Of a DNA stretch of 55,024 bases, positions 26,300-55,024 are shown piece after piece. The first letter of the stretch is position 1. The number at the start of each line of letters is the position of its first letter. The stretch spans positions 1-55,024 of the IMG/VR virus record IMGVR_UViG_3300032285_001218; one strand, written 5' to 3'. This DNA is from a virus. Lineage: Duplodnaviria > Caudoviricetes. The notes beneath the pieces are model-generated. The model was given only the letters and a program-made list of their open reading frames with translations. It did no database searches and was not told the DNA's origin. The position numbers and the translations under genes were made by a program.

Positions 26300-26337
26300 T
26301 ATCGTGTATTTATTCGTTTATATAATGTGCTAGTTTA
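26300..26337 (-). promoter_or_regulatory. bipartite late promoter-like element
   Basis: TAAACTAGCACATTAT-7 nt-AATAAATACACGATA. Confidence 0.6.
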
Positions 26338-32300: not shown

Positions 32301-35300
32301 CGTATAGTGATGTTCCACTGATCCCAGCGGCAATACCTGCTTCAGTATCGGCTATTTTATTCCATGCATCAGGAAGAAGTGTAGTTTCGACCCATTCATA
32401 GATATCAACACTTGCACCCGTTGCCAAAGTATTCCATGTATTGGTTCTATACATTACATCCGAATCATAACTATTAATAAATTTAGCGGTCCTCAAATCC
32501 CACCATAGTCTACCAACTTGTGATTTGTTCCACGGAGAGTCTGCATCAACATTGACATTTTCTGTTCCTACTGAATAAATTGCAGGATCATAAAATGATT
32601 GATATTTGATTTCTTCAGCAGCCGGGCCAGCTGGTCTTCCTTGTGCAACATCAATTATGTCAAGATAAGTTATTAATTTACCTGATACTCGATTATATAA
32701 AAAGGCTTTTCTAATTTTATTCACATCAGGTTTAGCAACTTCTTGATATTTGATTGACCAGCTACTAGTCGACGGTGGTTTTAAATAGTCTAAAACTTTT
32801 CCTGAAACTAAATTACGATCCAATGCATAAGGTGCACCTACTACAACCCTGTCATTACCTACCGCAAATCCAATACCATATCCATCACGAGCAGTTAATG
32901 TATTATTAAGAGTTTCGCTGTATACCCATTTGCTTGAATATCTATCATAGATATCAATGCGGCCGCTATCCACATTAGTAGAGACAAATCGTGTAGAATC
33001 CTTGTCAAATGTAGTAGCGTATTCATTTCTACCCGATATCGGGTCTTTTACATATGACGATGTTAGTATATTGTTGTTCTCATCTAAATATGAAAAAGTT
33101 GGCAATGTAGTTGCATACTGATCCAACGATGTTTTTATAACAGTATCTTCGTATGAACTATACACAACAAGTGTGTTACTACCGTTCATAAATGCAACTC
33201 TGCTACCAAAGTATCCAGATTCTTCTGCTTTGTGATTTACTAATTCTTGATAAGATACATATCCAGATGTTGTCTTTTTATATACAGTAACATTACCTTG
33301 AAATTGTTTATTGCCAGATGCCAGACTATCACCTACAGCAAGATAAGATGCATCGGTTGATAGTGCAATTGTTTTGCCGAAACTTGTAGTAGTACCTTGC
33401 AATGTTTGTTGTGTTGGAATTGTTCCAGGATTAGTAATAATAATAATTTTTCCGTTAGTTACTCCGTTATTTGATACTATTACTAAAGTATTATTATCAG
33501 AACTAATAGCTAAAGGACTTCCTAAATTGGCGCCAGCAGCAGGGCCTTCGTATGTTTCTTCTTTATCGTATCCCCAGCCAGTAAATGAAAAACTAATTTT
33601 TCCGCTCGGAGTACTATCAGCAGGAGCACTAATAGTTAAAGTAGTTCCATTCAATACTTCTAACACAGTTTGTCCGCTCGTAAATCCTTCGCCGCTAATA
33701 GTCATACCTGGTAAAATGCCAACAGTTGGATTAAAAGGAGACGGGACAGCTAATGTTGGAATATCTTTTGATAATGCAAGAGTAGTAGATGAGCTACCAA
33801 CTGGATTATAATATGCAGTTTTGTAAACTGTTGTAGTATATTTCAGTTTATAAACTTTTCCTGCATTATTATTATAACCAGATGCAGTAACATATAATAC
33901 GTTATCACCAAATACTAAATTAGAACCAAAGTGTTCATAGTTAGCAGGACTTGGACTAACAATAGAATGTACTATTGTGAATATATTATTTGAATCTTTT
34001 TTGTATAGTGAAATTACACCTTGTTCAACTAGACCGCTATCTTGTCCCGGAATAAGAGTCACTGGAACATACAGTAATTTTTTCCAAATACTACCATCAC
34101 TAAATGTAGTAGACGGAGTAGATGTAAGAGCTTGATAATAGTAAGTATCTTCAGAATTATATACAATATCTCCCAGTACGTAAGGACTTGTTGATGTAAT
34201 ACGTGTATATACATTGCTGGCTAATTTAGATCCAGTTGCTAACCATTTACCATCAGGAGAAATAGCAGTTACAGTGGCAATATTTTTAGGCAAGTTACCT
34301 GCTGGGCCATCTATTGTTCCAGTATTAGGAGCACTTGAAATATAAGGACGCTGTATGTTTTGTCGTTGTAGCCATGGCGATTTATAACCAGCCTTATCCC
34401 AAGTTTGCAATTCTCCTAAATTTGTAGAAATTGCAACTAGTGTACCTTGTTGATTAGATGCAATATAGCGGCCATAATTTAATAAATTTGCAGGACTTGA
34501 ATTTGTTAATTCAGTTGTTTCATAAATTGGTGTGTATTCCCACGATGCCCACTTGCCGGTCCCAGTGTTGTCGGTCCATATTTGTTCGCCTAATTCTAAA
34601 TTAGAAGTAATAGATTGATCAATATCATCAATTGATGATAATCGACGACTGATCAATACATTTACATTTATTTTAAGTACTAACGATGGAACAACTTGTT
34701 GGCTCCATCCCTTGATAGTGGTTGAAATAGTAAATTTATTTTGAGATACCGATGTAATCTTATAGAATCCGTTCAGCAAAGTGACTTGAGATAGACCAAT
34801 ATATTCGCCAACTTTTAATGTCAGTAATTCAGTTGTAGTTATTGTTAGTGTTGTAGATGCAGAATCATACTGGAGATCGTTTACGCTAATATTAGAATTA
34901 GTAAATTGATAAACATTCCAATCATTTTTTTCAAAAGTTACCCATATATAACATTTATTAGTAAATGTCGTAATATCGTAAGATGTTATATCATTAATAT
35001 TTTTTAAAATTAAAAATACTTCTGCAGATCTTACATATCCAGAACTTCTTAAAAATGGTCGATAATTGCTAATCACCGGCCATGGGTTATTATTATAACC
35101 CATAGGTTTTAAATATACTTGATTTGTATTTTGCCTTATAATAAAGTCAGTAAAATTATTTGTTGTATCTGATAATTCATAACCCTGTGGGTTGTTTTTA
35201 ACTAATGATTCATCTAAAATAAATTCTACATTATCAAACGCAGAACTTGCTCCGTATTGCCCTGCACGAAGTGCCCATTCTTCGTAGAATGTTAAACTAT

Positions 35301-38300
35301 CTTGTCCTTCTGCGCTTAATACATCAAACAATTTATTAAGACTGTTTTGCGTGCCTTTTTCAATTATCATTCCTTGGTAAAATTTAAATTCACTGACATC
35401 GTTTTGAATAATATTTTCAAGGTACTGTCGTTTTTGATAACCAATTAAATGTTGCGCCATTTTTTGCTGACCGGCATCAAAATTATCACTGTCAAGGCTG
35501 TAAAAATCTTCAAATTGTGCCGCTTTGTAAGACCAATTAGGCAGAAGTTGTGTAGACGGCTTTTTATCAAGTTTAATCCAATCTTTATCTACAAATGTTT
35601 GCGAGCCCACTAAAAATTTACTTGCGGTATAGAAGAATTGCTTATACTTAACAATATCTCCTAAATCGTAATCTTGCCAAGGTATCCAGTTCTGAATATT
35701 TGCAACGTCAAGAATAAATCCTGGTATGTCAAGACCTCCGTACCATTCGTTACTAACGTATCCAGAAACTTTAATTCTATCTTGTTTATAACCAGTTGAT
35801 GGACTGTAGATAGTATCATTAAACATTGTTGAATTATCTAACAACACAACATGCTCATGTTGTATTAGATAAAAACTTGCACCGTATATACCGTCACTAG
35901 TACGAGAACTATAACTTACTGCATTATCTTCTCTATAAGAATTAATAAGAATTGCTTCTAACGGAGTCCCATCAGCTTTAAAAATTTCATAGCCATTAAA
36001 TGGATTTCTAATGTCATCAATAACACATAAGTTTGCATTAAATATTATCTTGTCTGCTGCTGGACTGAGACTAATTACTGGGCTGCCTACGCTACTTAAT
36101 CCGTCAAGTTTAACAAACGATTCTTCATTAAATATTGGATTGGCTTCTACTTTTTTAAGGGCTTGGTAATAATCGCCATTATACTTAACAACATTGCCGT
36201 ACTCAATTGCATCCATTGGATTCCATTCCGTCCAGTGCTCTTGGCCAGTAGCCCAATTTTGTGTAGTCCAGAATAAAAATTCTTTAGCTGATGTTTCCCA
36301 GTTAGTAACTGCATTTAAAGTTGTATTAAAATCATCAAATATAAATCCTTGATCTTTTAACCATTCTCCGTACCCTGTTAGAAAATCAACAACTTCTTGA
36401 GTAGATCTGAATCTAGTTCCATATGGGATAGTAATTGCAAATTCCTTGTCCCATGTTTTTCGCAATGTAGCGTCACGTCCTCCAATAATAGGCAACGATG
36501 GTAGTAATTTAAAATTATTAGCATTAAAACTACCAGCTGATAGATGAGATATAGTTGTTCTATAAAATTTATTTGCAAATTTAACTACTTTTCCTGCAAC
36601 ATAATTTTGATTAGAATCCCAATTAGTAAAACTTTCTGATATGCCGCCTACATTTATTGTTATTCCAGATTGTAAAAAATTATATGTTTTAAAATATGGT
36701 TGTGTTTTGCTGTAACCTTTTACTTCATATTCAGTGTTAGATATTTTAGTTATAATAACTCCGCTATAAGTAATTTTACGAACAGGGCTAGAAATATTTA
36801 AAATAGTAGTATAATTTTCTGGAGGGACAAATACATTACCTGCCGATAACGGAGTTTTTGAATCTAATAATAAATTAAATTTTTCTTTACTTGTAAATGC
36901 ACCGACACGATAACTTAATTGTGTTTTGATATTCAATAAATCATATTGGTAATCGGCGTAAGATTTTAAATTATCACTTAAAATATAATTTGCAATATAA
37001 TTTATAATACCTGAAGTTTGTGTTCGTGTTGTACTTGAATAGATACTAGGAAATGTAATATCAGCTGGTGTAACACGAAGTCCAGTATCTTTATAAACCA
37101 TCTGTCCAGTAAGATTTCTTACAATCCTAGATCTATCAAGTAGTATGCCAAATGTCTTTGATGGAGTTAATAGCATTGAAGTTAATATGACACTAAATGC
37201 ATAATGGCTACTACGTCTCCATGTAGATTCAACAGGGCTTATATCTCCAAATATAAAACCGTCAGTAGGTCTAGAAGTTAACGGACTACTAGATAATCCT
37301 GAAGCAAGCGGGCTAATAAGGTTTCCAAATTCGTCAACCGGAATGTGCTTCATCAAGAAAGGTTTTGCATACTTTTTTATATAAGTTGCAGGCAGACCGG
37401 GCCGGCGAACTGCGCCATCTGCAATATCTTGCCACATTACACGGTTGTCGCTAGTGTATGGCGCTGGGCCGTATACTTCTTGCCACCATAATGGTTCAAT
37501 AGTAAAACCAAGCATCTCCCACGGACACAACTGCGGGCGTTCTGTATCTAAAATCCAATAGTATATGCCTCTCCAATATCCTGGAAGATTGCGGGCGTCG
37601 GGGGCAGTGTGCCCTGTATAGTTAAATGTAAAAGAATCGTCTTTATTGTAACCAATAGGTTTTGTAAAATCTTTGTCAATTAAACTTGACCATTTATAAA
37701 AATTTGGGCCAAGGACTTCGTTAAATTCAGTTAAACTATAGTCTGTTGTCCTGTTATAGCTAGGAATAACATCTGCAATATCAAATATAGTAGTGTCGTA
37801 AGAAATTTTTATATTATTAAAAATACGTTTTTCTAACTCTAATATTATATCATCTCTGTAATCATTATAAGCTAGTATCTGACTACCGTCATGTCCTTGT
37901 ATCATCATACGAGGTGTTCGGAGACTAGTATCAAGATATAGTTTAGGTTCGTATTTTGGCCACATGCCTAATTTAGTAGGAGTTTCAGGGATAAAACTAC
38001 CATCAGTGCTATCATATTCGTAAATTGAAACAATATCATTTTCTGATAAGTTAGCAGAAATATTTACAAACCCTTGACTATCAAATGTATAATCTTTTGC
38101 ATATATTAGTTGTACACCGTTTAAATATACGCCAACTGCTTTATTAGATAATTCATCTAAATTAAATGAATTAGTAAGAGGGTAATATTTTACTCTGCTA
38201 TCTATTACAGTAATATTATTTTTAATACTTGCACGATAGGGAACCATATCACTAAAATAATATGGAATATTATTAGGTTTATCTTTATTAATTTCGGCTA

Positions 38301-40893
38301 AAATTAAATTTACTTGCTCAATTGGAGTTACGTTGGCACCAAGAGAGGTGGCAGTCAAAATAAAATTACGTTTAAATTGATTATAGTTATCTCGTGCTTG
38401 TTCTATAGCACGAACAATATTGTTTGTACTTGATGTAATATGGTATAGGCTTAAACTTGCCGGGCCGCTATGTTGTACAAATTTAGTCCCGTATTGTGTA
38501 ACATTACCGAGATCTCTTAAATTACTAGCGCCTGGAAACACTCCAGTAAATGTCGAATTATCAAAGTTATCAATGATACTATCAACGTGATCAATAACTT
38601 CCCCCAATGTAAAATCTGCAATGTCACTATTAAGAGGATTATTTTTCAAATTTACTGGAATTTCATAAAACCCGTTGGAATTGATTGGCTGTGTAGCAAA
38701 CGCTCGAATAGTTAATACATCGGTGAGTAAGATATCTGTATTAAGAATAATATTTTTATAGTCTGATTTAGTAATTAGACTCCAATGATCACTAGTTAGT
38801 CGTTTGCCGTTGATGTACACTCGAACAATTAAATCTTCAAGGTTTGATACATTATCAAATATATCAATATCAAAATTATTTGTTTTATTAGAATTTTTAT
38901 AAATCCTTATTGCAGCTTGTGTAGTTGGCGTTGTTGCAATTTGCCACCCATTAACAAAATTCTTATTTCCATTATTATCAGTTTTAACAAGATACCCTGT
39001 TTTAACAGATTTATTAATGATAGTAATAATATCTTTATATTGGAATGAGTCGGCCGCAAGATTGAAATTAAAAACAATATCTCCAATGTTTGCAATATTT
39101 TTATAAGATAAGGCAAATCCTAAATTTGTATCTGGTGTTCCGCTTCCAATTTTATAAGAAAATAATTTTGTACCTAAAAAAGTAGTTCCGTCGTATATAG
39201 TTTTGTCGCCAAAACTTTGATTTAAATCATCAACAATATCAAATAATGGTGATTGATTAACAGTAGTTTTTTGTTGAGTGGGCAACCAAGTTGTACCGTT
39301 ATACCAATACATTAATCCTTTATTTGCAGTTCCTTGTTTGACTAGCACAACATCATTAAGTACAGGTTCAGCGACTTTAACTAATCGAATTTGTCTACTA
39401 CCTGCATTTAAATGTAATACATCAATAAATTCTACTCTATACAAATTATTTTTTACTAAACGATCAGTGTCGGCCAGGAATAAAATTAACTGACCTTCAG
39501 CAAGGTTAACATTGTCAACATTATATCCAAGTTTGCCTTCGATAATAGAAAATGCATCAGTTGTAAACGAATCAATTAAATCAATGTCTGGAATTGCAGT
39601 AGTACCAAAGTTAAACAGTTTTAAGTTAGCTTCAAATTCAATAACAGGTCTTACAGCACGAAGTGTTTGATCCAAACCAACTGTTGAATTATTATATTTT
39701 GCACTAGTTTCTATAACATCTTTATGAAACCATCGATTGTATCTTGACCAAGGATTATGATCCAGGCTTGCACGATTAATAACAATGTAATCAAGCGTTT
39801 TGGCAAAACCAGTTGAGTCGCCAAAACCGTCACTATCAAATGGTGTGGTGTCAAATTTTAATACTGTAGACTGAGAATATACACTAGAAACTTCTAATAT
39901 AGATTTATTAATTAATTGTATAGAATTACCTACACCTTCAACATAATACTCGCCTATTGCGTAAGTAGCAGGGCTTACGTTGCCGCCGAATGATACTTTC
40001 ATCCCGTTGCTTAATTTTGTCCCGTTGCTTAAAGTATAAAATTTCTTTCCAATAATATCGGCTTCAACATCTATAAATGAATTTTCATCAACGTCGTATA
40101 TTTGAAATACACCTCCTAGATTTAAATCTGTTTCACTTTGGTAATATAATACATTAGGAGAGTTTACAGGAATTTTAAAAGTCAAAACTCCTGTTTCAAT
40201 TGAGTTATTTGTAACTCCGTTTGTATAGATATCAGCCGCATTAGTAGTCCTTGCGGTTTTAATACTAAATGGATTGCCAGTGCTATTGATTTCAAATTTG
40301 TAAGTCTGGCCTCGGTATAACTTAATAACTGGATTAGCTGTTAACCCGTCAGGAGTAAACACATACTGATTATTAGCACCTTCAGTTTGAAATGTTATAG
40401 AGTAAGAACTAATAGAATTACTTTGTTGTCCGTATATTTTAATAGTTTCAGGTCCGTAAGGTAACCAATAATAGTTTTGAAAGTTAACAAACTTATCCCA
40501 ATCAATGTGCGGATCCCAACTATAAAATTCTTGTTTATTTAAACGTGCATGATTAGTAGTGTTGGCTCCAAATACACCCAACTGATTAATATAATCTATA
40601 TAATCTTTAAAAAATATATTATTTCCTAAAGAGTCGTTTACTGTAAAACTAGGTTCTAATTGATAATTTTGTCTATTTGCATCTGCTGCCTCTACAAAAA
40701 TATCAGTTCCAGTCGTAGCTTTTGCATATTGACGACCAATATATCCGTTAACTTTTTTAACAGTACCTGGTTGTACTAACTGATCAATAGTAGCTTGAAG
40801 GAATCTCTTATTAGCATCAGTTTTATAGAAATTTGGGAGAAAATTTACTCCGATACCTTTTTTAGATCCTGCAGGGTTAATACTATCAGCCAT
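26335..40893 (-). CDS. giant multidomain virion (baseplate wedge-associated) protein, 4852 aa
   Basis: Uninterrupted ORF next to gp6-like gene; GSGY...P...GA.A repeats, FG-GAP-like repeats, W-x5-Y-x2-G-x2-V repeats. Confidence 0.8.
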   Translation of the reverse strand: MADSINPAGSKKGIGVNFLPNFYKTDANKRFLQATIDQLVQPGTVKKVNGYIGRQYAKATTGTDIFVEAADANRQNYQLEPSFTVNDSLGNNIFFKDYIDYINQLGVFGANTTNHARLNKQEFYSWDPHIDWDKFVNFQNYYWLPYGPETIKIYGQQSNSISSYSITFQTEGANNQYVFTPDGLTANPVIKLYRGQTYKFEINSTGNPFSIKTARTTNAADIYTNGVTNNSIETGVLTFKIPVNSPNVLYYQSETDLNLGGVFQIYDVDENSFIDVEADIIGKKFYTLSNGTKLSNGMKVSFGGNVSPATYAIGEYYVEGVGNSIQLINKSILEVSSVYSQSTVLKFDTTPFDSDGFGDSTGFAKTLDYIVINRASLDHNPWSRYNRWFHKDVIETSAKYNNSTVGLDQTLRAVRPVIEFEANLKLFNFGTTAIPDIDLIDSFTTDAFSIIEGKLGYNVDNVNLAEGQLILFLADTDRLVKNNLYRVEFIDVLHLNAGSRQIRLVKVAEPVLNDVVLVKQGTANKGLMYWYNGTTWLPTQQKTTVNQSPLFDIVDDLNQSFGDKTIYDGTTFLGTKLFSYKIGSGTPDTNLGFALSYKNIANIGDIVFNFNLAADSFQYKDIITIINKSVKTGYLVKTDNNGNKNFVNGWQIATTPTTQAAIRIYKNSNKTNNFDIDIFDNVSNLEDLIVRVYINGKRLTSDHWSLITKSDYKNIILNTDILLTDVLTIRAFATQPINSNGFYEIPVNLKNNPLNSDIADFTLGEVIDHVDSIIDNFDNSTFTGVFPGASNLRDLGNVTQYGTKFVQHSGPASLSLYHITSSTNNIVRAIEQARDNYNQFKRNFILTATSLGANVTPIEQVNLILAEINKDKPNNIPYYFSDMVPYRASIKNNITVIDSRVKYYPLTNSFNLDELSNKAVGVYLNGVQLIYAKDYTFDSQGFVNISANLSENDIVSIYEYDSTDGSFIPETPTKLGMWPKYEPKLYLDTSLRTPRMMIQGHDGSQILAYNDYRDDIILELEKRIFNNIKISYDTTIFDIADVIPSYNRTTDYSLTEFNEVLGPNFYKWSSLIDKDFTKPIGYNKDDSFTFNYTGHTAPDARNLPGYWRGIYYWILDTERPQLCPWEMLGFTIEPLWWQEVYGPAPYTSDNRVMWQDIADGAVRRPGLPATYIKKYAKPFLMKHIPVDEFGNLISPLASGLSSSPLTSRPTDGFIFGDISPVESTWRRSSHYAFSVILTSMLLTPSKTFGILLDRSRIVRNLTGQMVYKDTGLRVTPADITFPSIYSSTTRTQTSGIINYIANYILSDNLKSYADYQYDLLNIKTQLSYRVGAFTSKEKFNLLLDSKTPLSAGNVFVPPENYTTILNISSPVRKITYSGVIITKISNTEYEVKGYSKTQPYFKTYNFLQSGITINVGGISESFTNWDSNQNYVAGKVVKFANKFYRTTISHLSAGSFNANNFKLLPSLPIIGGRDATLRKTWDKEFAITIPYGTRFRSTQEVVDFLTGYGEWLKDQGFIFDDFNTTLNAVTNWETSAKEFLFWTTQNWATGQEHWTEWNPMDAIEYGNVVKYNGDYYQALKKVEANPIFNEESFVKLDGLSSVGSPVISLSPAADKIIFNANLCVIDDIRNPFNGYEIFKADGTPLEAILINSYREDNAVSYSSRTSDGIYGASFYLIQHEHVVLLDNSTMFNDTIYSPSTGYKQDRIKVSGYVSNEWYGGLDIPGFILDVANIQNWIPWQDYDLGDIVKYKQFFYTASKFLVGSQTFVDKDWIKLDKKPSTQLLPNWSYKAAQFEDFYSLDSDNFDAGQQKMAQHLIGYQKRQYLENIIQNDVSEFKFYQGMIIEKGTQNSLNKLFDVLSAEGQDSLTFYEEWALRAGQYGASSAFDNVEFILDESLVKNNPQGYELSDTTNNFTDFIIRQNTNQVYLKPMGYNNNPWPVISNYRPFLRSSGYVRSAEVFLILKNINDITSYDITTFTNKCYIWVTFEKNDWNVYQFTNSNISVNDLQYDSASTTLTITTTELLTLKVGEYIGLSQVTLLNGFYKITSVSQNKFTISTTIKGWSQQVVPSLVLKINVNVLISRRLSSIDDIDQSITSNLELGEQIWTDNTGTGKWASWEYTPIYETTELTNSSPANLLNYGRYIASNQQGTLVAISTNLGELQTWDKAGYKSPWLQRQNIQRPYISSAPNTGTIDGPAGNLPKNIATVTAISPDGKWLATGSKLASNVYTRITSTSPYVLGDIVYNSEDTYYYQALTSTPSTTFSDGSIWKKLLYVPVTLIPGQDSGLVEQGVISLYKKDSNNIFTIVHSIVSPSPANYEHFGSNLVFGDNVLYVTASGYNNNAGKVYKLKYTTTVYKTAYYNPVGSSSTTLALSKDIPTLAVPSPFNPTVGILPGMTISGEGFTSGQTVLEVLNGTTLTISAPADSTPSGKISFSFTGWGYDKEETYEGPAAGANLGSPLAISSDNNTLVIVSNNGVTNGKIIIITNPGTIPTQQTLQGTTTSFGKTIALSTDASYLAVGDSLASGNKQFQGNVTVYKKTTSGYVSYQELVNHKAEESGYFGSRVAFMNGSNTLVVYSSYEDTVIKTSLDQYATTLPTFSYLDENNNILTSSYVKDPISGRNEYATTFDKDSTRFVSTNVDSGRIDIYDRYSSKWVYSETLNNTLTARDGYGIGFAVGNDRVVVGAPYALDRNLVSGKVLDYLKPPSTSSWSIKYQEVAKPDVNKIRKAFLYNRVSGKLITYLDIIDVAQGRPAGPAAEEIKYQSFYDPAIYSVGTENVNVDADSPWNKSQVGRLWWDLRTAKFINSYDSDVMYRTNTWNTLATGASVDIYEWVETTLLPDAWNKIADTEAGIAAGISGTSLYGNGVYALRQRYDSISQSFKNTYYYWVKNKKTIPNVSGRYLSAQAVASLIENPRGQGYAYLALTGTNSFSLVNAKQYLKDTEVVLSVEYWTIDKNDINVHSQWKIINNDANTVLPGSVELKWFDSLCGKDLAGREVPDISLPPKLRYGIENRPRQSMFVNRFEALKQFIEQVNLTLKQEQIVTTRDISKLKLYDTPPSLITGLYDSIENTDAELRFVNAGGYKRPVFGNLIIVDGKITGLDIQFAGRGYLQAPYINIIGSGIGAKVRAIINSVGQITGVTVLSAGEGYDNNTIATVRDYSVLVYSDSQAQGTWALYSYEPTEKVWSRLQSQTYNTQKYWSYVDWFATGYNQFTAVDHAVDTLAELSSITVEIGQLVKVRNPSSGNWLVIEKYANNDLFDYTRSYNIVGIGNGTIQFNSSIYESVSTDEGYDGSTYDGAVFDNAPTTELRIILNALKDNILIDELKATYLNLFFTTVRYALSEQIYLDWIFKSSFIKARHNVGLLNQPVTYKNDNLSDYQEYIAEVKPYKTKIREYVSSYQNTDLSSTLISDFDLPPRYRDNKIVTMDAYVNHGSLVTLDSAFNSYPWKNWVDNLGFVITQLKIINGGSGYITEPVVRIVSDSGSGATARAFFSNGIINRIVLLNPGSGYLSAPTIVIDGGILATGTPAQVIAVIGKGLPRSNLIQIKFDRITHSYYVTHLEETESFSPNGSRLQFPLTWAPDNTIGSSTVTVSGVAALRDSYKLSVVSTKTGNSTKYSGLITFDSAPTGNISVTYKKNTSLLNAADRINYFYNPQEGNIGNDLSQLMTGIDYGGVVVTGLGFEISTGWGVLPYFTDKWDSVDAEFDDYIITVSAGTHTFPSNAADSLPTTWPIGSEINIYHIIHNIETHEAVLDQLSYSFSIYKNNPEVSVVYPTTSGGVDSNYDASTNYSTTTLKVADTTSIEAGMIIVGTGFTSGQTVVRNVNGTTLTISAPADSEPNGTLHFTHSIRGGNIVQLLSTVGIFVGDTIRTSSVAAFGYGTVVKEITNIGVVLDQIIYETLLPGTVLEFSRNLVIPTTANIYTAGIITLKEPAVVGSIIKITGNFDPIRIDDPHYGTPQQINSTAVVTTPVYTGDITQTVSIPVDYVVNDNDIIILRKSTSDGSIKSQDTDYDTALSGGEFLGNYSTGIFTSATGILPDDIILDGDDLISPTTSPAPEEVVPGQVVDAVAIKVYDQPPAGAANIQVDNFIADGITTSFKLSLQPNTAEAVIVRAGLDLQTSGTDYTVDYRNKQIIFNVAPTAETIITVYIIGFNGSNILDIDYFVGDGVTQEFITRAPWVTSINALIYIDGIPVTPDVFKTDSSYNSINRVAMRFGVAPEAGALLSFIIVAGTQQSFAVTKTEKIVTNGSYTYSLAYNIGNALPNESNMLVRVNNTIIPGPINSYFTISNNRLNYTVDPTKVIPYSTAISNIFVYVGDTKLNLGSDYTIDLGGITVKINKLIYSQYAKQTLVVSVTTDQSYSYDPITNKITFAESYSNLDVIEVISSYKHDILDIERTMLTVSSNLALTPDSIEYYSYKGITNGTLALDRSVINDSYIWVIQNETILVPSVDYKLNEGRTSIQLTVNPPIDDKITLITFGSNILTTGISYMQFKDMLNRVHYKRLSLNKQTVLTTDLKFDDKFIEVENAENFDKPNFIKNKPGIIEIRGERIEFYEINGNVLSKIRRGTLGTGVPLVHKAGTYVQEIGTTESIPYVDSSIVEQVISDGESIIIPLNFIPATAGVEQWFTDFGFTLTGNYSISLSYNTNDVVIYNNLYYVNIKSYVFDTTITILPTNTTYWKLYDTTIPVGYGQCDEIEVFVGGYDTSVDWLPNVTYLPGIIVTLGSYTYRCITEHTSTSNFKNDITNWTFFIGNIRLKKAPYSMHNENQAPNSPLGDIKLDADFSVDGVSSAIRLTHKLLFGTRITVIKRNGTDWDSITNIQYDNSKIAEFLKATPGIWYAENTISTVQ

Positions 40894-50295: not shown

Positions 50296-51123
50296 ATGAC
50301 AGCAAAAGTTAATTACCTAAACAACAAGGATATGTTGTTGGAAATACATAGAAGTAAAAGCTCATATTGTAGCTTTACACAGCCTGAATTTCATCAATAT
50401 GACAGTATCTTGCCAAGTGTTGACAAGATCAATATCAGAAGTATAGCTGATGCAAAACGAGCAAGGGCCAAACGTATTGGTGATTTAGAGTATGCAAGAC
50501 GCAAAGCGGCTGGAGAAAAAGTTAAACAAGCAGATTGCGAAGTTGACTATAAAAAGATACTAAAAACAGATGTTGTATTTCGTGTTATGACATTTGATCA
50601 TATTCCTTTAAACGGAACTAGAAAAAAGAATCCAAAAAGTCTTGCAGATCATAGAGACAAAGTGAACTTCCCTCCGTTTCAGCATTGGAAATATAACGAA
50701 GAAGATGAACTCGTTTGTGTGGGCAAGAGTCATTGGAAAGGTGATTTGGAAAAAGGTCACTTTGACAAAGATGCTGGACAAATTACTCCGACACTTGCCC
50801 GAATGATGATTAAGCTATGTGAACGATATGCCACAAGGGGCAATGTTCGTGGTTACACTTACAACGATGAAATGAAAGGGCAAGCTATTTTGCAATTAAC
50901 ACAAATTGGACTTCAATTTGATGAAAGCAAGTCGGATAATCCGTTTGCTTATTTTACTGCCGCAGTTACTAATAGTTTTGTACGTGTTATTAATATTGAA
51001 AAACGTAATCAGAATATTAGGGACGATGTGCTTGAAATGAATGGTATGAATCCAAGTTACAGTAGAACTGGCTCGGGAGAACATGCTGCCGCTGTTAAAC
51101 GTTTTGATGAAGGTGCTGAATGA
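50296..51123 (+). CDS. gp55: T4-like late sigma factor, enlarged
   Basis: NYLNNKDML, GYTYNDEM, FDESKSDNPFAYFT...NSFVRVINIEK; synteny with gp47/gp46. Confidence 0.85.
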   Translation: MTAKVNYLNNKDMLLEIHRSKSSYCSFTQPEFHQYDSILPSVDKINIRSIADAKRARAKRIGDLEYARRKAAGEKVKQADCEVDYKKILKTDVVFRVMTFDHIPLNGTRKKNPKSLADHRDKVNFPPFQHWKYNEEDELVCVGKSHWKGDLEKGHFDKDAGQITPTLARMMIKLCERYATRGNVRGYTYNDEMKGQAILQLTQIGLQFDESKSDNPFAYFTAAVTNSFVRVINIEKRNQNIRDDVLEMNGMNPSYSRTGSGEHAAAVKRFDEGAE

Positions 51124-52133
51124 CAAATTTATTTAAGAAGGTTGCTTGCTTCACAGACATACACTTTGGTTTGAAATCAAACAGTAGTGTACACAATCAA
51201 GACTGTGAAGAATTTGTAGATTGGTATATTGCCAAAGCCAAGGAGGAAGGATGCGATGTTGGAATTTTTATGGGTGATTGGCATCACAATCGCAATAGTC
51301 TTAATATCACTACTATGGACTATAGTATTAGGGCCTTGGAAAAGTTGGGGCAGGCGTTTGATAAATTTTATTTCTTTCCTGGCAATCATGATCTTTATTA
51401 CAAAGACAAACGGGATATTCACTCAGTCGAGTTCGGAAAATATATTCCCGGAATCACAGTGGTACATGAACCGACTACCATTGGGGACGTTACACTCTGT
51501 CCGTGGCTTGTAGGAGACGAATGGAAAACTATTGGTAAAAAAGGTGGCAAATACATCTTTGGTCACTTTGAATTACCCAGCTTCTTTATGAACGCTATGA
51601 TTCAAATGCCGGATCACGGTGAAATACAATTAGATAGCTTTAAAGGTTACGAGTTAGGCTTTAGTGGACACTTCCACAAACGCCAACAACAGCGTAATAT
51701 GATCTACATTGGCAATGCATTTCCCCATAACTACGCAGATACATGGGACGACGAGCGTGGTATGATGATACTTGAGTGGGGTGGTCAGCCAGAATATCAT
51801 ACGTGGCCTATGCAACCTACCTTTCGAACAGTTAAATTAAGTCAACTAATAGATGAAGCTGATGTAATTATCAAACCTAATCAACACCTACGTGTCAGTT
51901 TAGACATTGATATTACCTACGAAGAAGCTAGCTTTGTCAAAGAAGACTTTATGAAAAAGTATGCTATTCGAGAATTAACACTTATTCCCGAAAAGAAAGA
52001 ATTAGAAATTAACACTGATATTGATATACAAGCATTTGAAAGTGTAGATCAAATTGTCAGCAATCAATTAATCAATATTGAAAGCGATACATTTGATAAA
52101 AAAATATTGTTGGAAATCTATAACAGTCTATGA
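51120..52133 (+). CDS. gp47: recombination endonuclease subunit (Mre11/SbcD-like)
   Basis: TDIHFG, GDWHH, GNHD, GHFE, SGHFH phosphoesterase motifs. Confidence 0.92.
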   Translation: MTNLFKKVACFTDIHFGLKSNSSVHNQDCEEFVDWYIAKAKEEGCDVGIFMGDWHHNRNSLNITTMDYSIRALEKLGQAFDKFYFFPGNHDLYYKDKRDIHSVEFGKYIPGITVVHEPTTIGDVTLCPWLVGDEWKTIGKKGGKYIFGHFELPSFFMNAMIQMPDHGEIQLDSFKGYELGFSGHFHKRQQQRNMIYIGNAFPHNYADTWDDERGMMILEWGGQPEYHTWPMQPTFRTVKLSQLIDEADVIIKPNQHLRVSLDIDITYEEASFVKEDFMKKYAIRELTLIPEKKELEINTDIDIQAFESVDQIVSNQLINIESDTFDKKILLEIYNSL

Positions 52134-53908
52134 TCAAAATTAAAGATTTAACCGTAAAAAACTTTATGAGCGTGGGTAATCAAACCCAAGCTGTAAACTT
52201 TGGGCGTGAACAACTAACTCTAGTACTTGGTGAAAATTTAGATCAAGGCGGAGATGACAGCGGATCACGTAACGGTACAGGTAAAACTACCATTGTTAAT
52301 GCGTTGAGCTTTGCTTTATTTGGCAATGCCCTTACGAATATCAAGAAAGATAACTTGATTAATAAGATTAACAATAAGAATATGTTGGTCACACTGTCTT
52401 TTGAGAAAGATGGTAACAAGTATAAGATTGAACGTGGTCGTAAACCCACAATCATGAAGTTTTACGTAAACAACCAAGAACAAAGTGCAGAGTCAACTGA
52501 TGATAGTCAAGGTGACATGCGTGAAACACAAAAGGACATTGACGAATTACTAGGCATGAGCCACGATATGTTCAAGCATATTGTAGCACTAAACACCTAC
52601 ACTGAACCGTTCCTTAGTTTAAAAGCCAACGAGCAACGAGAAATTATTGAACAGTTACTAGGCATTACCCTGCTTAGTGAAAAAGCTGATGCACTTAAAG
52701 AACAAATCCGTCTAACTAAAGAGTCTATCTTTCAAGAAACTGCAGATATTGAGGCAGCTAAGAAGTCTAACGATAAAATTCAAATCAGTATTACTGGTTT
52801 AGAAACTAGACAAAGTGCTTGGTATAGTCAACAAAAGACAGACTGTGCTAAAATTACAGAAAGTATTGCAGAATTACAAAGTGTTGATATTGAAAAAGAG
52901 CTAGTTCAACATGCTAAACTAAAACAGTATGACGAACATGCCGCAAAGATCAAAAGTCTTAATAAAGAGAAAGCAACATTAGAAACTGCTGTTATTCAAG
53001 CAGATAAAAGTGTTACCAAGTATACTAAAGAAGTAGAACAGTTAAAAAACAAGACTTGTCCTGCATGTGAGCAAGGACTACACAGTCATAAGCACGAAGA
53101 AATGACTGCAGGTGCTGAAAAAAATCTTGCAGATGCAATAATCTATCTTGAAGGCGTTAGCGACAGCTATGCTAGTGTTGTACAAGAATTAGAAACCATT
53201 GGTGATATCAATGGAAGACCTAAAACTTACTATGATACTGTAGAAGAAGCACTAAAGCATCAAAATAATCTTACCAGTTTAGAAGAAGCATTGTCTAGAA
53301 GACAAGCTGAAACTGATCCTTATCAAGAACAAATTGATGATTTAAAACATACTGCTATTCAAGAGATCTCCTGGGATAATGTTAATGCGTTGACAACTAT
53401 TAAAGATCATCAAGAGTTTTTGCTTAAATTGTTAACAAATAAAGATTCGTTTATTCGTAAGAAGATCATAGATCAAAACCTTGCCTACTTGAACAATAGA
53501 TTAACCTACTATCTTGATAAGATGGGATTACCGCATCAAGTAAGTTTCTTAAACGACTTAAACGTTGAGATTACACAGCTAGGACAAGATCTAGACTTTG
53601 ATAACTTGTCACGTGGCGAACGTAATCGTTTAATTCTTGGATTGTCGTGGGCGTTCCGTGATGTGTGGGAAAGTTTGTATCAAAGTATTAACTTATTGTT
53701 TGTTGACGAACTTATTGACAACGGATTAGATGCAAACGGTGTAGAAAATGCCTTAGGTGTGCTTAAAAAGATGGCTCGTGAACGCAAGAAGAACATTTTC
53801 CTAATCTCGCACAAGGACGAATTAATTGGTCGCGTGAATAATGTGCTTAAAGTTATTAAAGAAAATGGCTTTACCAGCTATGCAAATGATATAGAGATTG
53901 ATGAATGA
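52130..53908 (+). CDS. gp46: recombination ATPase subunit (Rad50/SbcC-like)
   Basis: NGTGKT Walker A, CPAC zinc hook, LSRGE signature, LFVDE, ISH. Confidence 0.93.
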   Translation: MIKIKDLTVKNFMSVGNQTQAVNFGREQLTLVLGENLDQGGDDSGSRNGTGKTTIVNALSFALFGNALTNIKKDNLINKINNKNMLVTLSFEKDGNKYKIERGRKPTIMKFYVNNQEQSAESTDDSQGDMRETQKDIDELLGMSHDMFKHIVALNTYTEPFLSLKANEQREIIEQLLGITLLSEKADALKEQIRLTKESIFQETADIEAAKKSNDKIQISITGLETRQSAWYSQQKTDCAKITESIAELQSVDIEKELVQHAKLKQYDEHAAKIKSLNKEKATLETAVIQADKSVTKYTKEVEQLKNKTCPACEQGLHSHKHEEMTAGAEKNLADAIIYLEGVSDSYASVVQELETIGDINGRPKTYYDTVEEALKHQNNLTSLEEALSRRQAETDPYQEQIDDLKHTAIQEISWDNVNALTTIKDHQEFLLKLLTNKDSFIRKKIIDQNLAYLNNRLTYYLDKMGLPHQVSFLNDLNVEITQLGQDLDFDNLSRGERNRLILGLSWAFRDVWESLYQSINLLFVDELIDNGLDANGVENALGVLKKMARERKKNIFLISHKDELIGRVNNVLKVIKENGFTSYANDIEIDE

Positions 53909-54159
53909 ACTATGATGAGTTGCACGATCAACTAATGAAAGAATTCAGAGCATACTTTGAAGACTATCAAAATTGGGCAACTACTGAGTCGCATGCCTCT
54001 GGTATGCGTTCTCGAGCACATTTATCAGAGATTAGGCGTATTGCCAGTGCATTACGTGTAGAAATATTAGAAGTACGTAGGCTTAAACCAAAAATTAAAT
54101 CGCCCGCATATAGGGCCGCTCAAAAACAACAGGCAGAAAAAGGCACAGACACTAACTAG
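53905..54159 (+). CDS. small basic helical protein, possibly nucleic-acid binding
   Basis: ASGMRSRAHLSEIRRIASALRVEI, Lys-rich tail. Confidence 0.5.
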   Translation: MNYDELHDQLMKEFRAYFEDYQNWATTESHASGMRSRAHLSEIRRIASALRVEILEVRRLKPKIKSPAYRAAQKQQAEKGTDTN

Positions 54160-54162
54160 TTG

Positions 54163-54600
54163 ATGTCATGGTATTATCAAAACGCACTAGTTGAAACCCT
54201 TCCAGAAGAATGTATAGGTTTCGTCTATTGTATCACTAATAACATCACTGGTCGCAAATATATAGGCAAAAAACTAGCTAAATTCGCAAAAACAACTTAC
54301 AAAACAGTAAAACTAAAAAACGGCACAAAGAAGAAAAAGAAGATTCGTTCTAAAATTGATTCTGACTGGCGTGAATACTATGGCTCAAGCGACCATCTAA
54401 CAAAAGATATAGAAACTCTAGGCGCAGAGAATTTTACAAGAGAAATACTTTACTACTGCACATCAAAGGCTGAATGCTCATACATAGAGGCAAGAGAACA
54501 ATTCACTCGCAAAGTTCTCGAAAGTGACGACTACTATAACGGACACATAGCTGTTCGTGTACACGGAAGTCATATCAAAGGCAAACAATTAAACGGTTAA
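54163..54600 (+). CDS. compact single-domain GIY-YIG endonuclease
   Basis: GFVYCITN...KYIGKK, YYGSS, conserved E (YIEARE), YYNG; Lys-rich insertion; no C-terminal DNA-binding domain. Confidence 0.85.
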   Translation: MSWYYQNALVETLPEECIGFVYCITNNITGRKYIGKKLAKFAKTTYKTVKLKNGTKKKKKIRSKIDSDWREYYGSSDHLTKDIETLGAENFTREILYYCTSKAECSYIEAREQFTRKVLESDDYYNGHIAVRVHGSHIKGKQLNG

Positions 54601-54992
54601 AGCTCGCACAGGCTAATTTCGTGTGCCGAACAGAAGAAACCTGGACCCAGTGTCGCAGGAATCCGTAGTCTCTCGCCGTTAAGAGCACTCAATCACTATC
54701 CTTCACAGGACGAAGATCGCAAAGCTGCCGCGGTTTGATTGTTTAAAAGAAATACAGGCAAAAAGAGGGTTAATAGCCCACGTTTGCTAGCATGTTAGCG
54801 TATGTTAGTAAGCCGCCGTCATAATAAAGACACAGCTCGAGGTACCGGATGACCGCCTCTGTAATGCTGTAACGCTAAGTGATAAAAGTGCAACTCAGAT
54901 AATGTTGATTTTATTTCTTTGCCCGCAAGGGCAAAGTGTGACTGAACAATCTAGATAATATTTAAACTGCTTCGCAGCAGTATTATTAAATA
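54601..54992 (+). ncRNA. putative large structured, pseudoknotted ncRNA of unknown family
   Basis: No ORF; GC-richer than genome; about ten hand-verified helices, long-range pairs, G-U pairs valid only on + strand, GNRA-capped stem. Confidence 0.7.
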
Positions 54993-55024
54993 CAAAAAGA
55001 AATTAGTTCGAGCGTAAGCGATGA

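What the first reader, a model, noticed from the sequence alone, without database searches (positions are those of the whole stretch)
54601..54992. Ornate ~400-nt pseudoknotted RNA not matching families I recognise
Hand-verified pairings: GCACA/TGTGC (54606-10/54622-26); CCTGGAC/GTCgCAGG (54640-59); long-range GCACT/AGTGC (54685-89/54887-91) and ATCACT/AGTGAT (54692-97/54878-83) closing a ~180-nt multibranch domain. Inside it: TCCT/AGGA (54699-710); a 13-bp stem 54782-94/54801-13 with four G-U pairs, whose loop TTAGCG pairs with CGCTAA (54873-78) as a pseudoknot; nested ACAGC/GCTGT, GAGG/CCTC, CGG/CCG (54832-70). Downstream: CTTTGCCC-GCAA-GGGCAAAG (54917-36, GNRA loop) and a final stem (54959-92). 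The G-U pairs indicate selection on a + strand RNA. It may extend past the window.
Basis: seen in the sequence. Interest (0 to 1): 0.8.

Follow-up and report, generated by a model that had tools for sequence, protein, structure and literature searches.

The report
Full-length Polynucleobacter-1 twin-word phage RNA

Summary
Bases 54601-55024 (+) encode a structured RNA. Its claimed novelty is only partly right.

- **Known part.** Bases 54601-54744 are a full-length match to Rfam RF01718, the Polynucleobacter-1 motif (87.3 bits against a cut-off of 37). Its function is unknown.
- **Uncatalogued part.** The conserved RNA runs about 330 nt further. The window cuts off its last ~45 nt.
- **Structure.** On 58 homologues, 62 of 86 proposed pairs show compensatory changes. 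91.6% of cells pair, against 78.3% in shuffles (0 of 500 reach it).
- **What failed.** The Rfam helix 54690-94/54737-41 replaces them.
- **Twin word.** A 6-7-nt word occurs twice (54897-903 and 54953-959). It is identical at both places in 68 of 68 loci and changes at least 17 times on a tree. I found no reader.
- **Neighbouring nuclease.** A SegE-like GIY-YIG gene lies upstream in 82 of 84 loci. It does not co-vary with the word, and it occurs without the RNA in 6 of 6 cultured T4-like phages.

This scan has found the same family before on other DNA. Best reading: a free-standing trans-acting phage RNA. The mechanism is inferred, not shown.

The parts
54160..54600 (+). 146-aa SegE-like GIY-YIG nuclease gene. 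It has a catalytic domain only and is a neighbour, not shown to be a partner. Its stop codon abuts the RNA's first base.
   Evidence: Pfam PF19835 at E 6.6e-33, 114 bits against a cut-off of 25; phrog_447. A homologue lies upstream on the same strand in 82 of 84 RNA loci.
54601..55024 (+). The whole structured RNA as far as the window holds it. The last ~45 nt are missing.
   Evidence: nhmmer reaches query position 350 or beyond from position 15 or earlier in 68 loci, with many running to position 419-423 of 424. Alignment A1 shows the continuation.
54601..54744 (+). Domain 1, the catalogued Polynucleobacter-1 motif. Helices: 54606-10/54622-26, 54641-46/54652-58, 54670-73/54682-85, 54690-94/54737-41, 54699-701/54708-10 and 54714-20/54730-36.
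   Evidence: RF01718 at 87.3 bits, model positions 1-141 of 141. Helices 1-6.
54601..54614 (+). A small 5' pseudoknot: bases 54601-04 pair with the loop bases 54611-14 of the first hairpin. This places the RNA's 5' boundary at 54601.
   Evidence: A1 columns 2/14 are GC in 40 and AU in 14 of 58 sequences. Columns 3/12 are CG in 56 and UG in 2.
54767..54881 (+). Domain 2, the doubly pseudoknotted core. Helices: 54767-70/54776-79, 54782-93/54802-13, 54832-36/54866-70, 54839-42/54856-59 and 54846-48/54853-55. Pseudoknot 1: 54796-801 with 54872-77. Pseudoknot 2: 54819-22 with 54849-52.
   Evidence: Helices 7-14. Pseudoknot 1 covaries in 6 of 6 pairs. Pseudoknot 2 covaries in 3 of 4 pairs (GUCAU/AUGAC against GUUGU/ACAAC).
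54879..54936 (+). Twin module A. It holds GUG, a variable hairpin stem (54882-87 with 54909-14 in the window) with word 1 in its loop, then the hairpin 54917-24/54929-36 with a GCAA loop.
   Evidence: The stem halves bind at -3.15 kcal/mol for own partners against -2.27 for permuted partners, sd 0.29. The hairpin is supported.
54897..54903 (+). Word 1 (AGATAAT), preceded by CTC.
   Evidence: It is identical to word 2 in 68 of 68 loci over 6 nt and in 66 of 68 over 7 nt. Mutual information equals the entropy at three positions.
54936..54977 (+). Twin module B. It holds GUGUGAC, a linker, word 2, then the small hairpin 54967-70/54974-77.
   Evidence: The layout parallels module A. The hairpin arms read CUGC/GCAG, GUGC/GCAC, CUAC/GUAG and AACGC/GCGUU in different loci.
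54953..54959 (+). Word 2 (AGATAAT), preceded by TCT.
55005..55024 (+). The 5' half of a stem capped by GAGC-GUAA-GC (55010-19). The window end cuts it. In homologues the closing strand and an 8-bp terminal hairpin follow.
   Evidence: Alignment A1 columns 575-629. Helices 18 and 19 covary in 2 of 2 and 8 of 8 pairs.

Best explanation
**What it is (shown).** This is one copy, cut short by the contig end, of a structured non-coding RNA of about 470 nt. It is carried by uncultured giant T4-like freshwater phages.

It has three parts:
- Domain 1 is the catalogued Polynucleobacter-1 motif.
- Domain 2 is a core with two pseudoknots.
- Domain 3 is two similar modules. Each presents the same short, mostly unpaired word.

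Two end hairpins follow the third part.

**Where it sits.** It lies at the 3' end of the gp55-gp47-gp46-GIY-YIG gene row. It starts at the base after the nuclease gene's stop codon. I found no promoter-like site between the two. It is therefore most likely made as the tail of that transcript (inferred).

**How it most likely works (inferred, not shown; about 40% on its own).** It acts as a free-standing RNA, a scaffold or decoy. It offers two identical single-stranded words to one reader that acts in pairs or twice. The conserved knotted domains 1 and 2 give the fold that holds the two modules.

It is not a guide for the neighbouring nuclease and not a 5' leader of the next gene.
For: - **Family and extent.** RF01718 match. 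90 of 115 pattern loci are homologous by nhmmer, and 68 cover nearly the full length.
- **Structure.** 91.6% of cells pair against 78.3% in shuffles. 62 of 86 pairs have changes on both sides. Slid controls pair at 35-41%.
- **Strand.** G-U pairs are fixed in 58 of 58 sequences.
- **Twin word.** Identical in 68 of 68 loci, with six word types and at least 17 changes on a tree built without the words. Other words sit at the same two places in a divergent subfamily. Minimum-energy folds leave the words mostly unpaired.
- **Not tied to the nuclease.** No GIY-YIG column tracks the word; the best normalised mutual information is 0.33 and 0.53. In 6 of 6 cultured T4-like phages the homologous gene has no such RNA within 1.5 kb. 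2 of 84 loci have another gene in its place, one of them a PD-(D/E)XK nuclease.
- **Not a leader.** The next ORF is on the opposite strand in 34 of 49 loci.
- **RNA libraries.** Contigs from four freshwater RNA libraries, 85-99% alike, cover the nuclease gene and the RNA. They bridge 54600/54601 in all four runs: X1 record 7, X2 record 13, X3 record 18 and X5 record 26. These libraries may also hold DNA.
- **Promoter scan.** No promoter-like site lies between 54160 and 54600, and no intrinsic terminator lies in 53800-55024.
Against: - No reader of the word was found.
- No function is shown for any member of the family.
- The contigs from RNA libraries cannot show strand, ends or level, and the libraries may hold DNA. 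Expression is therefore not proven, and a discrete RNA end at 54601 is not shown.
- The upstream nuclease is present in 82 of 84 loci. Its one identified replacement is another nuclease, and the other replacing gene matched no family. A functional link is therefore not excluded.
- All loci were collected with one domain-1 pattern from related phages. The association and the structure counts are not free of shared ancestry.
- A scaffold or decoy is a default reading for a large orphan RNA, not a tested one.
Confidence: 0.5

Rival explanations
1. Operon-end element acting in cis. The folded tail protects the gp46-nuclease transcript from 3' exonucleases, or it insulates or terminates convergent transcription. 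It has no role in trans.
For: - It sits at the 3' end of a gene row, and convergent genes follow in 34 of 49 loci.
- Contigs from RNA libraries join the ORF and the RNA.
- A terminal 8-bp hairpin lies just after the stop codon of the convergent 72-aa gene. I read this from the homologue sequences.
Against: - About 80 invariant positions, two covarying pseudoknots and the in-step twin word are far more than a stabiliser needs.
- The hairpins are not followed by T runs, and no terminator-like site was found in the window.
Confidence: 0.15
2. A ribozyme or self-processing RNA of an undescribed class. It might free itself from the mRNA, or cut or join at the two identical words.
For: - Its size, pseudoknots and many invariant junction bases (CACUAUCC, GGACGAAG, GGUACCGG, ACCGCC) are at the level seen in ribozymes.
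- Identical words at two sites would suit a two-site cut-and-join reaction.
Against: - No Rfam ribozyme or intron family matched, even at E up to 10 in 51000-55024.
- Flanking genes vary and are often on the other strand, so there are no exons.
- The RNA-library contigs showed no joint across the two words. Two single-contig joints lie elsewhere (54332 to 54587 and 54522 to 54824).
Confidence: 0.1
3. A DNA-level element. The twin words are iteron-like or crossover-core sites of a replication origin or a site-specific recombination site, and the transcript is incidental or serves as a primer.
For: - Two direct repeats kept identical while their sequence drifts is what is known of iterons and recombination cores (general knowledge).
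- The place lies beside recombination genes, and in cultured relatives beside Holliday-junction resolvases.
Against: - The helices covary with strand-specific G-U pairs, and the pseudoknots covary.
- Only two copies exist, 56 nt apart, inside modules that fold as RNA.
- No neighbouring protein column tracks the word.
- At least 17 changes among 60 sequences is fast for a protein-read site.
Confidence: 0.1
4. Partner or guide RNA of the adjacent small nuclease, forming a nuclease-RNA particle.
For: - The nuclease has no DNA-binding domain (146 aa). It is upstream in 82 of 84 loci.
- In one of the two exceptions a PD-(D/E)XK nuclease takes its place.
- The RNA starts at the base after the stop codon.
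Against: - Homologues of the protein occur in 522 cultured phage records. The 6 I examined lack the RNA.
- No protein column co-varies with the word.
- The word and its reverse complement are not enriched in 575 kb of flanks: 40 and 42 found, against 46.9 and 36.8 for other phages' words.
- 11 of 84 loci have another ORF inserted between the gene and the RNA.
Confidence: 0.07
5. A cis-regulatory 5' leader or riboswitch of the downstream gene. This is how the 2010 table tentatively marks the motif (cis-regulatory 'y', switch '?').
For: Table row in PMC2864571 (I saw only that passage). In 15 of 49 loci the next ORF is on the same strand.
Against: The next ORF is on the opposite strand in 34 of 49 loci, and downstream genes are of several unrelated kinds.
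Confidence: 0.03

Closest known systems
Polynucleobacter-1 RNA motif (Rfam RF01718; Weinberg et al. 2010, PMC2864571. I saw only its table row.)
   Same: Bases 54601-54744 match all 141 model positions at 87.3 bits. All 23 distinct homologous loci that I scanned also match, at 76.7-122 bits. The habitat given in the paper's table (fresh water, estuary) fits the lake and river RNA libraries that hold relatives.
   Different: The catalogued motif is only the first ~30% of the conserved RNA. The double-pseudoknot core, the twin-word modules and the end hairpins are not in the model. The paper's tentative 'cis-regulatory' label does not fit the gene layout seen here.
cow-rumen-2 RNA (Rfam RF02947)
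   Same: Domain 2 has the same order of parts: a hairpin with a UUAGC loop, then GCCGCC, three nested helices around GGAUGACC, and GUAA. Weak matches run both ways. The window scores 21.8 bits, E 0.88. My domain-2 model hits 10 of 65 cow-rumen-2 loci at the right place, the best at 20.2 bits, E 0.022. Both RNAs are found in giant-phage contigs.
   Different: The match is far below the cut-off of 66. None of 14 other family members matched it at E up to 0.5. The loci were chosen with a pattern that shares these motifs, so those hits are biased. RF01718 did not match in 10 cow-rumen-2 loci. Those RNAs appear to have a promoter-like site of their own and several copies per genome. This is a resemblance, not membership.
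Large orphan bacterial and phage RNAs such as GOLLD, ROOL and HEARO (recalled from the literature; no call)
   Same: All are large, intricately folded, phage-linked RNAs found by comparative genomics, with no function known at the time of discovery.
   Different: None matched in the Rfam scans. None, to my recollection, carries a twin word that changes in step.
Guide RNAs of mobile-element nucleases and recombinases (TnpB/IscB omega RNA, IS110 bridge RNA; recalled. Reviews PMC10690162 and PMC13565253 were seen only in a search listing.)
   Same: A structured RNA abuts a small nuclease gene, with short variable segments inside a conserved fold.
   Different: The neighbour is a GIY-YIG enzyme, not a RuvC or DEDD enzyme. 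I found no target complementary to the word, no co-variation with the protein, and no transposon ends.

Membership tests
Rfam RF01718 Polynucleobacter-1 | Covariance-model score at or above the curated gathering score (37 bits) over the whole model | tested here: met
   87.3 bits, E 2.9e-17, model positions 1-141 of 141, + strand.
Rfam RF01718 Polynucleobacter-1 | The model's helices are kept by compensatory changes in relatives | tested here: met
   In helices 1-6, 19 of 31 pairs change on both sides. The TCC/GGA helix never varies.
Rfam RF01718 Polynucleobacter-1 | Occurrence in Burkholderiales genomes and in freshwater or estuary samples (table of PMC2864571) | tested here: inconclusive
   Relatives occur in lake and river RNA libraries.
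Rfam RF02947 cow-rumen-2 | Score at or above the gathering score (66 bits) | tested here: not met
   21.8 bits, E 0.88, at 54782-54887. 0 of 14 other loci matched at E up to 0.5.
Group I / group II introns and known self-cleaving ribozymes | A match to a family model, and for introns flanking exons of one interrupted gene | tested here: not met
   No such Rfam match at E up to 10 in 51000-55024. Downstream genes differ and lie on the opposite strand in 34 of 49 loci.
tRNA / tmRNA | Detected by ARAGORN | tested here: not met
   0 genes in the whole window.
RNA-guided nuclease systems (omega RNA or bridge RNA type) | A variable RNA segment complementary to a target, and co-evolution or obligate linkage with the enzyme | tested here: not met
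   No enrichment of the word or its complement in flanks. No complement within the RNA itself. No protein column tracks the word. The protein family occurs without the RNA in the 6 cultured phages examined. Binding itself cannot be tested here.
Translational bypass of the T4 gene 60 type (recalled) | Matching take-off and landing codons about 50 nt apart inside one open reading frame | tested here: not met
   Two matching words 56 nt apart with a hairpin between them are present. No ORF runs into them, since the GIY-YIG ORF ends at 54600. The distance from the conserved GUG to the word is not a fixed multiple of three (lengths 9 to 13).
SegE-like GIY-YIG nucleases (Pfam PF19835), for the neighbouring gene | Profile score above the curated cut-off (25 bits) | tested here: met
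   114 bits, E 6.6e-33, residues 4-130 on profile positions 1-123 of 123.

The most novel reading that the evidence does not exclude
The RNA is a pairing device. Its two identical, fast-changing words each base-pair with the same short sequence on two nucleic-acid molecules, for example two copies of a site in replicating or concatemeric phage DNA. This brings the two copies together for the junction-cutting and recombination enzymes encoded beside it (gp46/gp47, the GIY-YIG or PD-(D/E)XK nuclease). That would be a new kind of RNA-directed step in phage recombination or genome resolution.

My evidence does not exclude this because every contig is a small fragment of its genome (1-15% by the tools' estimates). 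A matching site elsewhere in the genome could not be looked for.
Probability: 0.08. Interest if true: 0.9.

Novelty: new member of a known kind. Interest (0 to 1): 0.58.

Why it matters
- **An incomplete catalogue entry.** The 141-nt Rfam motif has been an orphan since 2010. It turns out to be the head of a ~470-nt RNA with at least two covarying pseudoknots. That places it among the most intricate phage RNAs with no known function. RNAs of this complexity have often turned out to be ribozymes or the cores of particles.
- **A concrete puzzle.** The twin word is always the same at both places yet free to change. That points to a reader that compares or uses two equal sequences.
- **A possible host link.** The phages are abundant uncultured giant lake phages. 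An RNA kept in so many of them is likely to matter for infection.
- **For this scan.** The finding is a repeat of a family already met on other DNA.

Tried and rejected
**Searches that found no relative**
- blastn of 54550-55024 against cultured phages: no match. A 76-nt core query gave only chance hits at E 0.6 or above.
- Pattern scan of bacterial and archaeal genomes: 120 hits, 0 homologous by nhmmer.
RF01718 and my domain-2 model found nothing above chance in RaK2, 121Q, PA5oct, Atu_ph07 or Phosso. The best was 13.2 bits, E 0.385. Nothing turned up within 3 kb of gp46 in three of them. Only these two models and five records were tried.

- A third RNA column that tracks the word: none.
- A complement inside the RNA: own word -5.04 against other words -4.74 kcal/mol.
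- A complement in the flanks: none enriched.
- A cluster of three reverse-complement 7-mers at 35833-36044 lies inside a 4852-aa ORF without longer complementarity.
- The 9-mer anti-word occurs once in 80 kb of five contigs, inside an ORF.
- GIY-YIG columns: none track the word. No pair of near-identical proteins with different words exists in the set (closest 92% identity), so that test is inconclusive.

**Pairings and readings dropped**
- Pairing of module linkers r1 with r2, and r2 with the tail, is no better than permuted.
- Mini-ORF and bypass readings were dropped because of the frame.
- The hammerhead reading of the 3' GAGC...GAA motif was dropped. The CUGAUGA core is not conserved, and the closing stem has the wrong topology (by eye).

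**Other**
- RNA libraries: parts of the stretch without contig cover mean nothing either way.
- Literature: 'Polynucleobacter-1' is in 1 paper. 'cow-rumen-2' is in 2 listed records, the preprint and the journal version of one Rfam paper. Two wider searches found nothing on a larger RNA or a GIY-YIG-linked RNA. Supplements are closed, and the 2010 paper's supplement may describe the motif further.

Full report
**Setting.** The window is a 55,024-bp IMG/VR virus fragment, estimated at 15% of its genome. Its last 5 kb carry, on the + strand:
- a gp55-like late sigma factor gene;
- gp47- and gp46-like recombination nuclease genes;
- an 84-aa ORF;
- a 146-aa ORF at 54160-54600.

The 146-aa ORF is a SegE-like GIY-YIG nuclease domain (PF19835, E 6.6e-33). 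By gp46, the nearest cultured relatives are the jumbo phages PA5oct, Phosso and Atu_ph07, at 46-48% identity. The finding covers the gene-free stretch from the base after that ORF's stop codon to the end of the contig.

**Is it known?** The gathering-threshold Rfam scan of the whole window gave one match. It is RF01718 (Polynucleobacter-1) at 54601-54744 on the + strand, 87.3 bits against a cut-off of 37, covering all 141 model positions. A permissive scan of 51000-55024 added only a sub-threshold match of 54782-54887 to cow-rumen-2 (21.8 bits against 66). ARAGORN found no tRNA or tmRNA. The only paper in the held library that names the motif is the 2010 discovery paper. I saw only its table row there: RNA 'y', cis-regulatory 'y', switch '?', Burkholderiales and fresh water/estuary.

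**Extent.** Ninety of them are homologous to 54601-55024 by nhmmer. Sixty-eight of these start at query position 15 or earlier and reach position 350 or beyond, and many run to position 419-423 of 424. In the 58-sequence alignment A1, conservation runs through the whole stretch and continues about 45 nt past the window's last base. The window's final TTCGAGCGTAAGCGATGA is the 5' half of a stem capped by GAGC-GNNA-GC. An 8-bp hairpin follows it in homologues. The RNA is therefore about 470 nt long, and the window truncates it. Every one of the 23 distinct homologous loci that I scanned matched RF01718 at 76.7-122 bits, and none matched another family at gathering score.

**Structure.** I wrote a structure of 86 pairs in 19 helices, including pseudoknots, and counted it on A1.
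- 91.6% of cells form standard pairs, against 78.3% in shuffles (0 of 500 reach it).
- With the partners slid by 1-3 columns, 35-41% pair.
- 62 pairs have changes on both sides.
- The covariation score is 0.396 against 0.154.

The sequences are related and the structure was partly derived from them. The figures therefore overstate independence, but the slid controls and the many pair types argue for real helices.

- the first hairpin;
- the outer CUG/CAG helix;
- the long stem 54782-94/54801-13;
- the nested helices of 54832-70;
- the GCAA hairpin, which folds in 54 of 58 sequences with 17 different arms;
- the pseudoknot between the TTAGCG loop and CGCTAA, where all six pairs covary.

I add a second pseudoknot, 54819-22 with the loop 54849-52 (GUCAU/AUGAC in some members, GUUGU/ACAAC in others). 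I also add a small 5' pseudoknot, 54601-04 with 54611-14, which fixes the 5' boundary at 54601.

The Rfam helix 54690-94/54737-41 is kept in 100% of cells instead. G-U pairs fixed in all 58 sequences, such as G54715-U54735, show that the + strand is the one under selection. Single-sequence folding is not informative.

**The twin word.** After domain 2 come two similar modules. Each has GUG(AC), a linker of about 9 nt, three pyrimidines (CUC in the first, UCU in the second), a word, a linker and a hairpin. The word is AGATAAT in the window, at 54897-903 and 54953-959.
- Across 68 parsed loci, the 6-mer is the same at both places in 68 and the 7-mer in 66.
- The mutual information between the copies equals the entropy at three positions, and no third column matches it.
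- There are six 6-mer types.
- On a tree built from the first 285 nt, with the words left out, the word changes at least 17 times. Tree errors and recombination could alter that figure.
- A divergent subfamily of 14 loci carries quite different twin words at the same two places: AGGATAAT, GTGTCAAGT and AG[TA]CAAG.

So identity of the two copies is kept, not their sequence. Word 1 lies in the loop of a hairpin whose stem varies. Minimum-energy folds leave both words mostly unpaired.

I looked for a reader and found none:
- no complement within the RNA;
- no enrichment of the word or its complement in 575 kb of flanks;
- no meaningful anti-word in five contigs of the 9-mer subfamily;
- no column of the neighbouring protein that tracks the word.

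**The neighbour.** Of 84 RNA loci with at least 600 nt upstream:
- 71 have a homologue of the GIY-YIG gene within 250 nt on the same strand;
- 11 have it 700-1042 nt upstream with another ORF in between;
- 2 have none within 1.7 kb. One of these has a PD-(D/E)XK nuclease in its place, and the other has a gene with no family match.

This looks like a tight link, but all the loci come from related phages with the same gene order. Seen from the protein's side the link fails. tblastn finds the family in 522 cultured phage records, mostly cyanophages. In the six that I examined (Melnitz, V45v66, BUCT-ZZ01, phiN3, ACP17, P-HM1), nothing like the RNA lies within 1.5 kb. In PA5oct and Phosso a Holliday-junction resolvase is annotated near the same spot. 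This fits a 'junction nuclease slot' at the end of the recombination gene row. I therefore read the nuclease as a constant neighbour, not a shown partner.

**Expression.** Sixteen runs on record as RNA, from lake, river and other freshwater samples, hold 14-25% of the sampled words. I laid four of them. Contigs 85-99% alike cover both the nuclease gene and the RNA. They bridge the junction at 54600/54601 in all four runs: X1 record 7, X2 record 13, X3 record 18 and X5 record 26. This fits co-transcription. However, contigs show neither strand, ends nor level, and such libraries can hold DNA. No promoter-like site lies between the ORF start and the RNA, and the scan found no terminator-like site.

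**What it is not.**
- It is not a leader of the next gene. That gene is on the opposite strand in 34 of 49 loci and is of several kinds.
- It is not an intron. There are no exons and no family match.
- It is not a bypass site, because no ORF runs through it.

A DNA-level reading (origin or recombination core) would explain the identity of the words. It does not explain the strand-specific covariation or the pseudoknots.

**Relation to cow-rumen-2.** Domain 2 and RF02947 share an order of parts, and weak matches run both ways. A pattern from the RF02947 consensus found 65 viral loci. Nine of the 10 that I checked are true members, at 90-110 bits. Several lie on contigs of 230-424 kb, with two to four copies per contig. 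RF01718 does not match there, and the reciprocal scores are far below any threshold. I report a resemblance only.

**Earlier notes of this scan.** After I had seen the extent and the twin word, I looked up earlier notes. At least a dozen windows from other genomes carry the same family, and their follow-ups reached much the same reading. One note says that distant members exist in cultured Klebsiella and E. coli jumbo phages. With RF01718 and my domain-2 model I found nothing in RaK2, 121Q, PA5oct, Atu_ph07 or Phosso.

**Verdict.** This is a real RNA and a member of a catalogued but unexplained family, and it is larger and more intricate than its catalogue entry. Its function is open. The in-step twin word is the feature most worth an experiment.

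Noticed in passing
window 26335-40893 (-): One ORF of 4852 aa on the minus strand, among baseplate and tail genes: a giant structural-region protein.
   Followed up: no
L237-L301 (for example L275, L288, L290 and L297, all on one 415,750-bp contig): cow-rumen-2 RNAs (RF02947) occur in two to four copies on rumen phage contigs of 230-424 kb. Conservation extends beyond the 106-nt model. Upstream there is a promoter-like TTTACA...TATATTT and a UCC..GGA-GCGAAG piece that recalls domain 1. Downstream there is a TATAAATA box.
   Followed up: partly
L005, L042, L038, L027 and L073, at the place of window 54864/54865: Some family members carry a 20-55-nt insert in the loop between GUAA and the 3' strand of helix 54832-36/54866-70. 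In L005, L042, L038 and L027 it is made of short tandem units (TATAGTCAAC-like).
   Followed up: no
L006/L016, L022, L024, L033, L043/L077/L081/L109, L102, L107: An extra ORF of 234-340 aa with no Pfam match is inserted between the GIY-YIG gene and the RNA in 11 of 84 loci. At least three unrelated kinds occur.
   Followed up: partly
window 53905-54159 (+): An 84-aa basic ORF overlaps the gp46 stop codon and precedes the nuclease gene. Similar small ORFs recur at this place in several loci. It has no family match.
   Followed up: no
L034, L089, L090, L014, L083, L037, L008, L108, L113, L116, L062, L030, L048, L082: A divergent subfamily has a gap of ~135-220 nt between the nuclease gene and the RNA (ten of the 14 at 134-147 nt), a different domain 2 and different twin words. 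It matches the window only weakly (E 1e-10 to 1e-3).
   Followed up: partly
window 54160-54600 and cultured phage records: The GIY-YIG family is annotated 'NAD synthetase' in many public phage records and in phrog_447. That annotation looks like an error spread from record to record.
   Followed up: no
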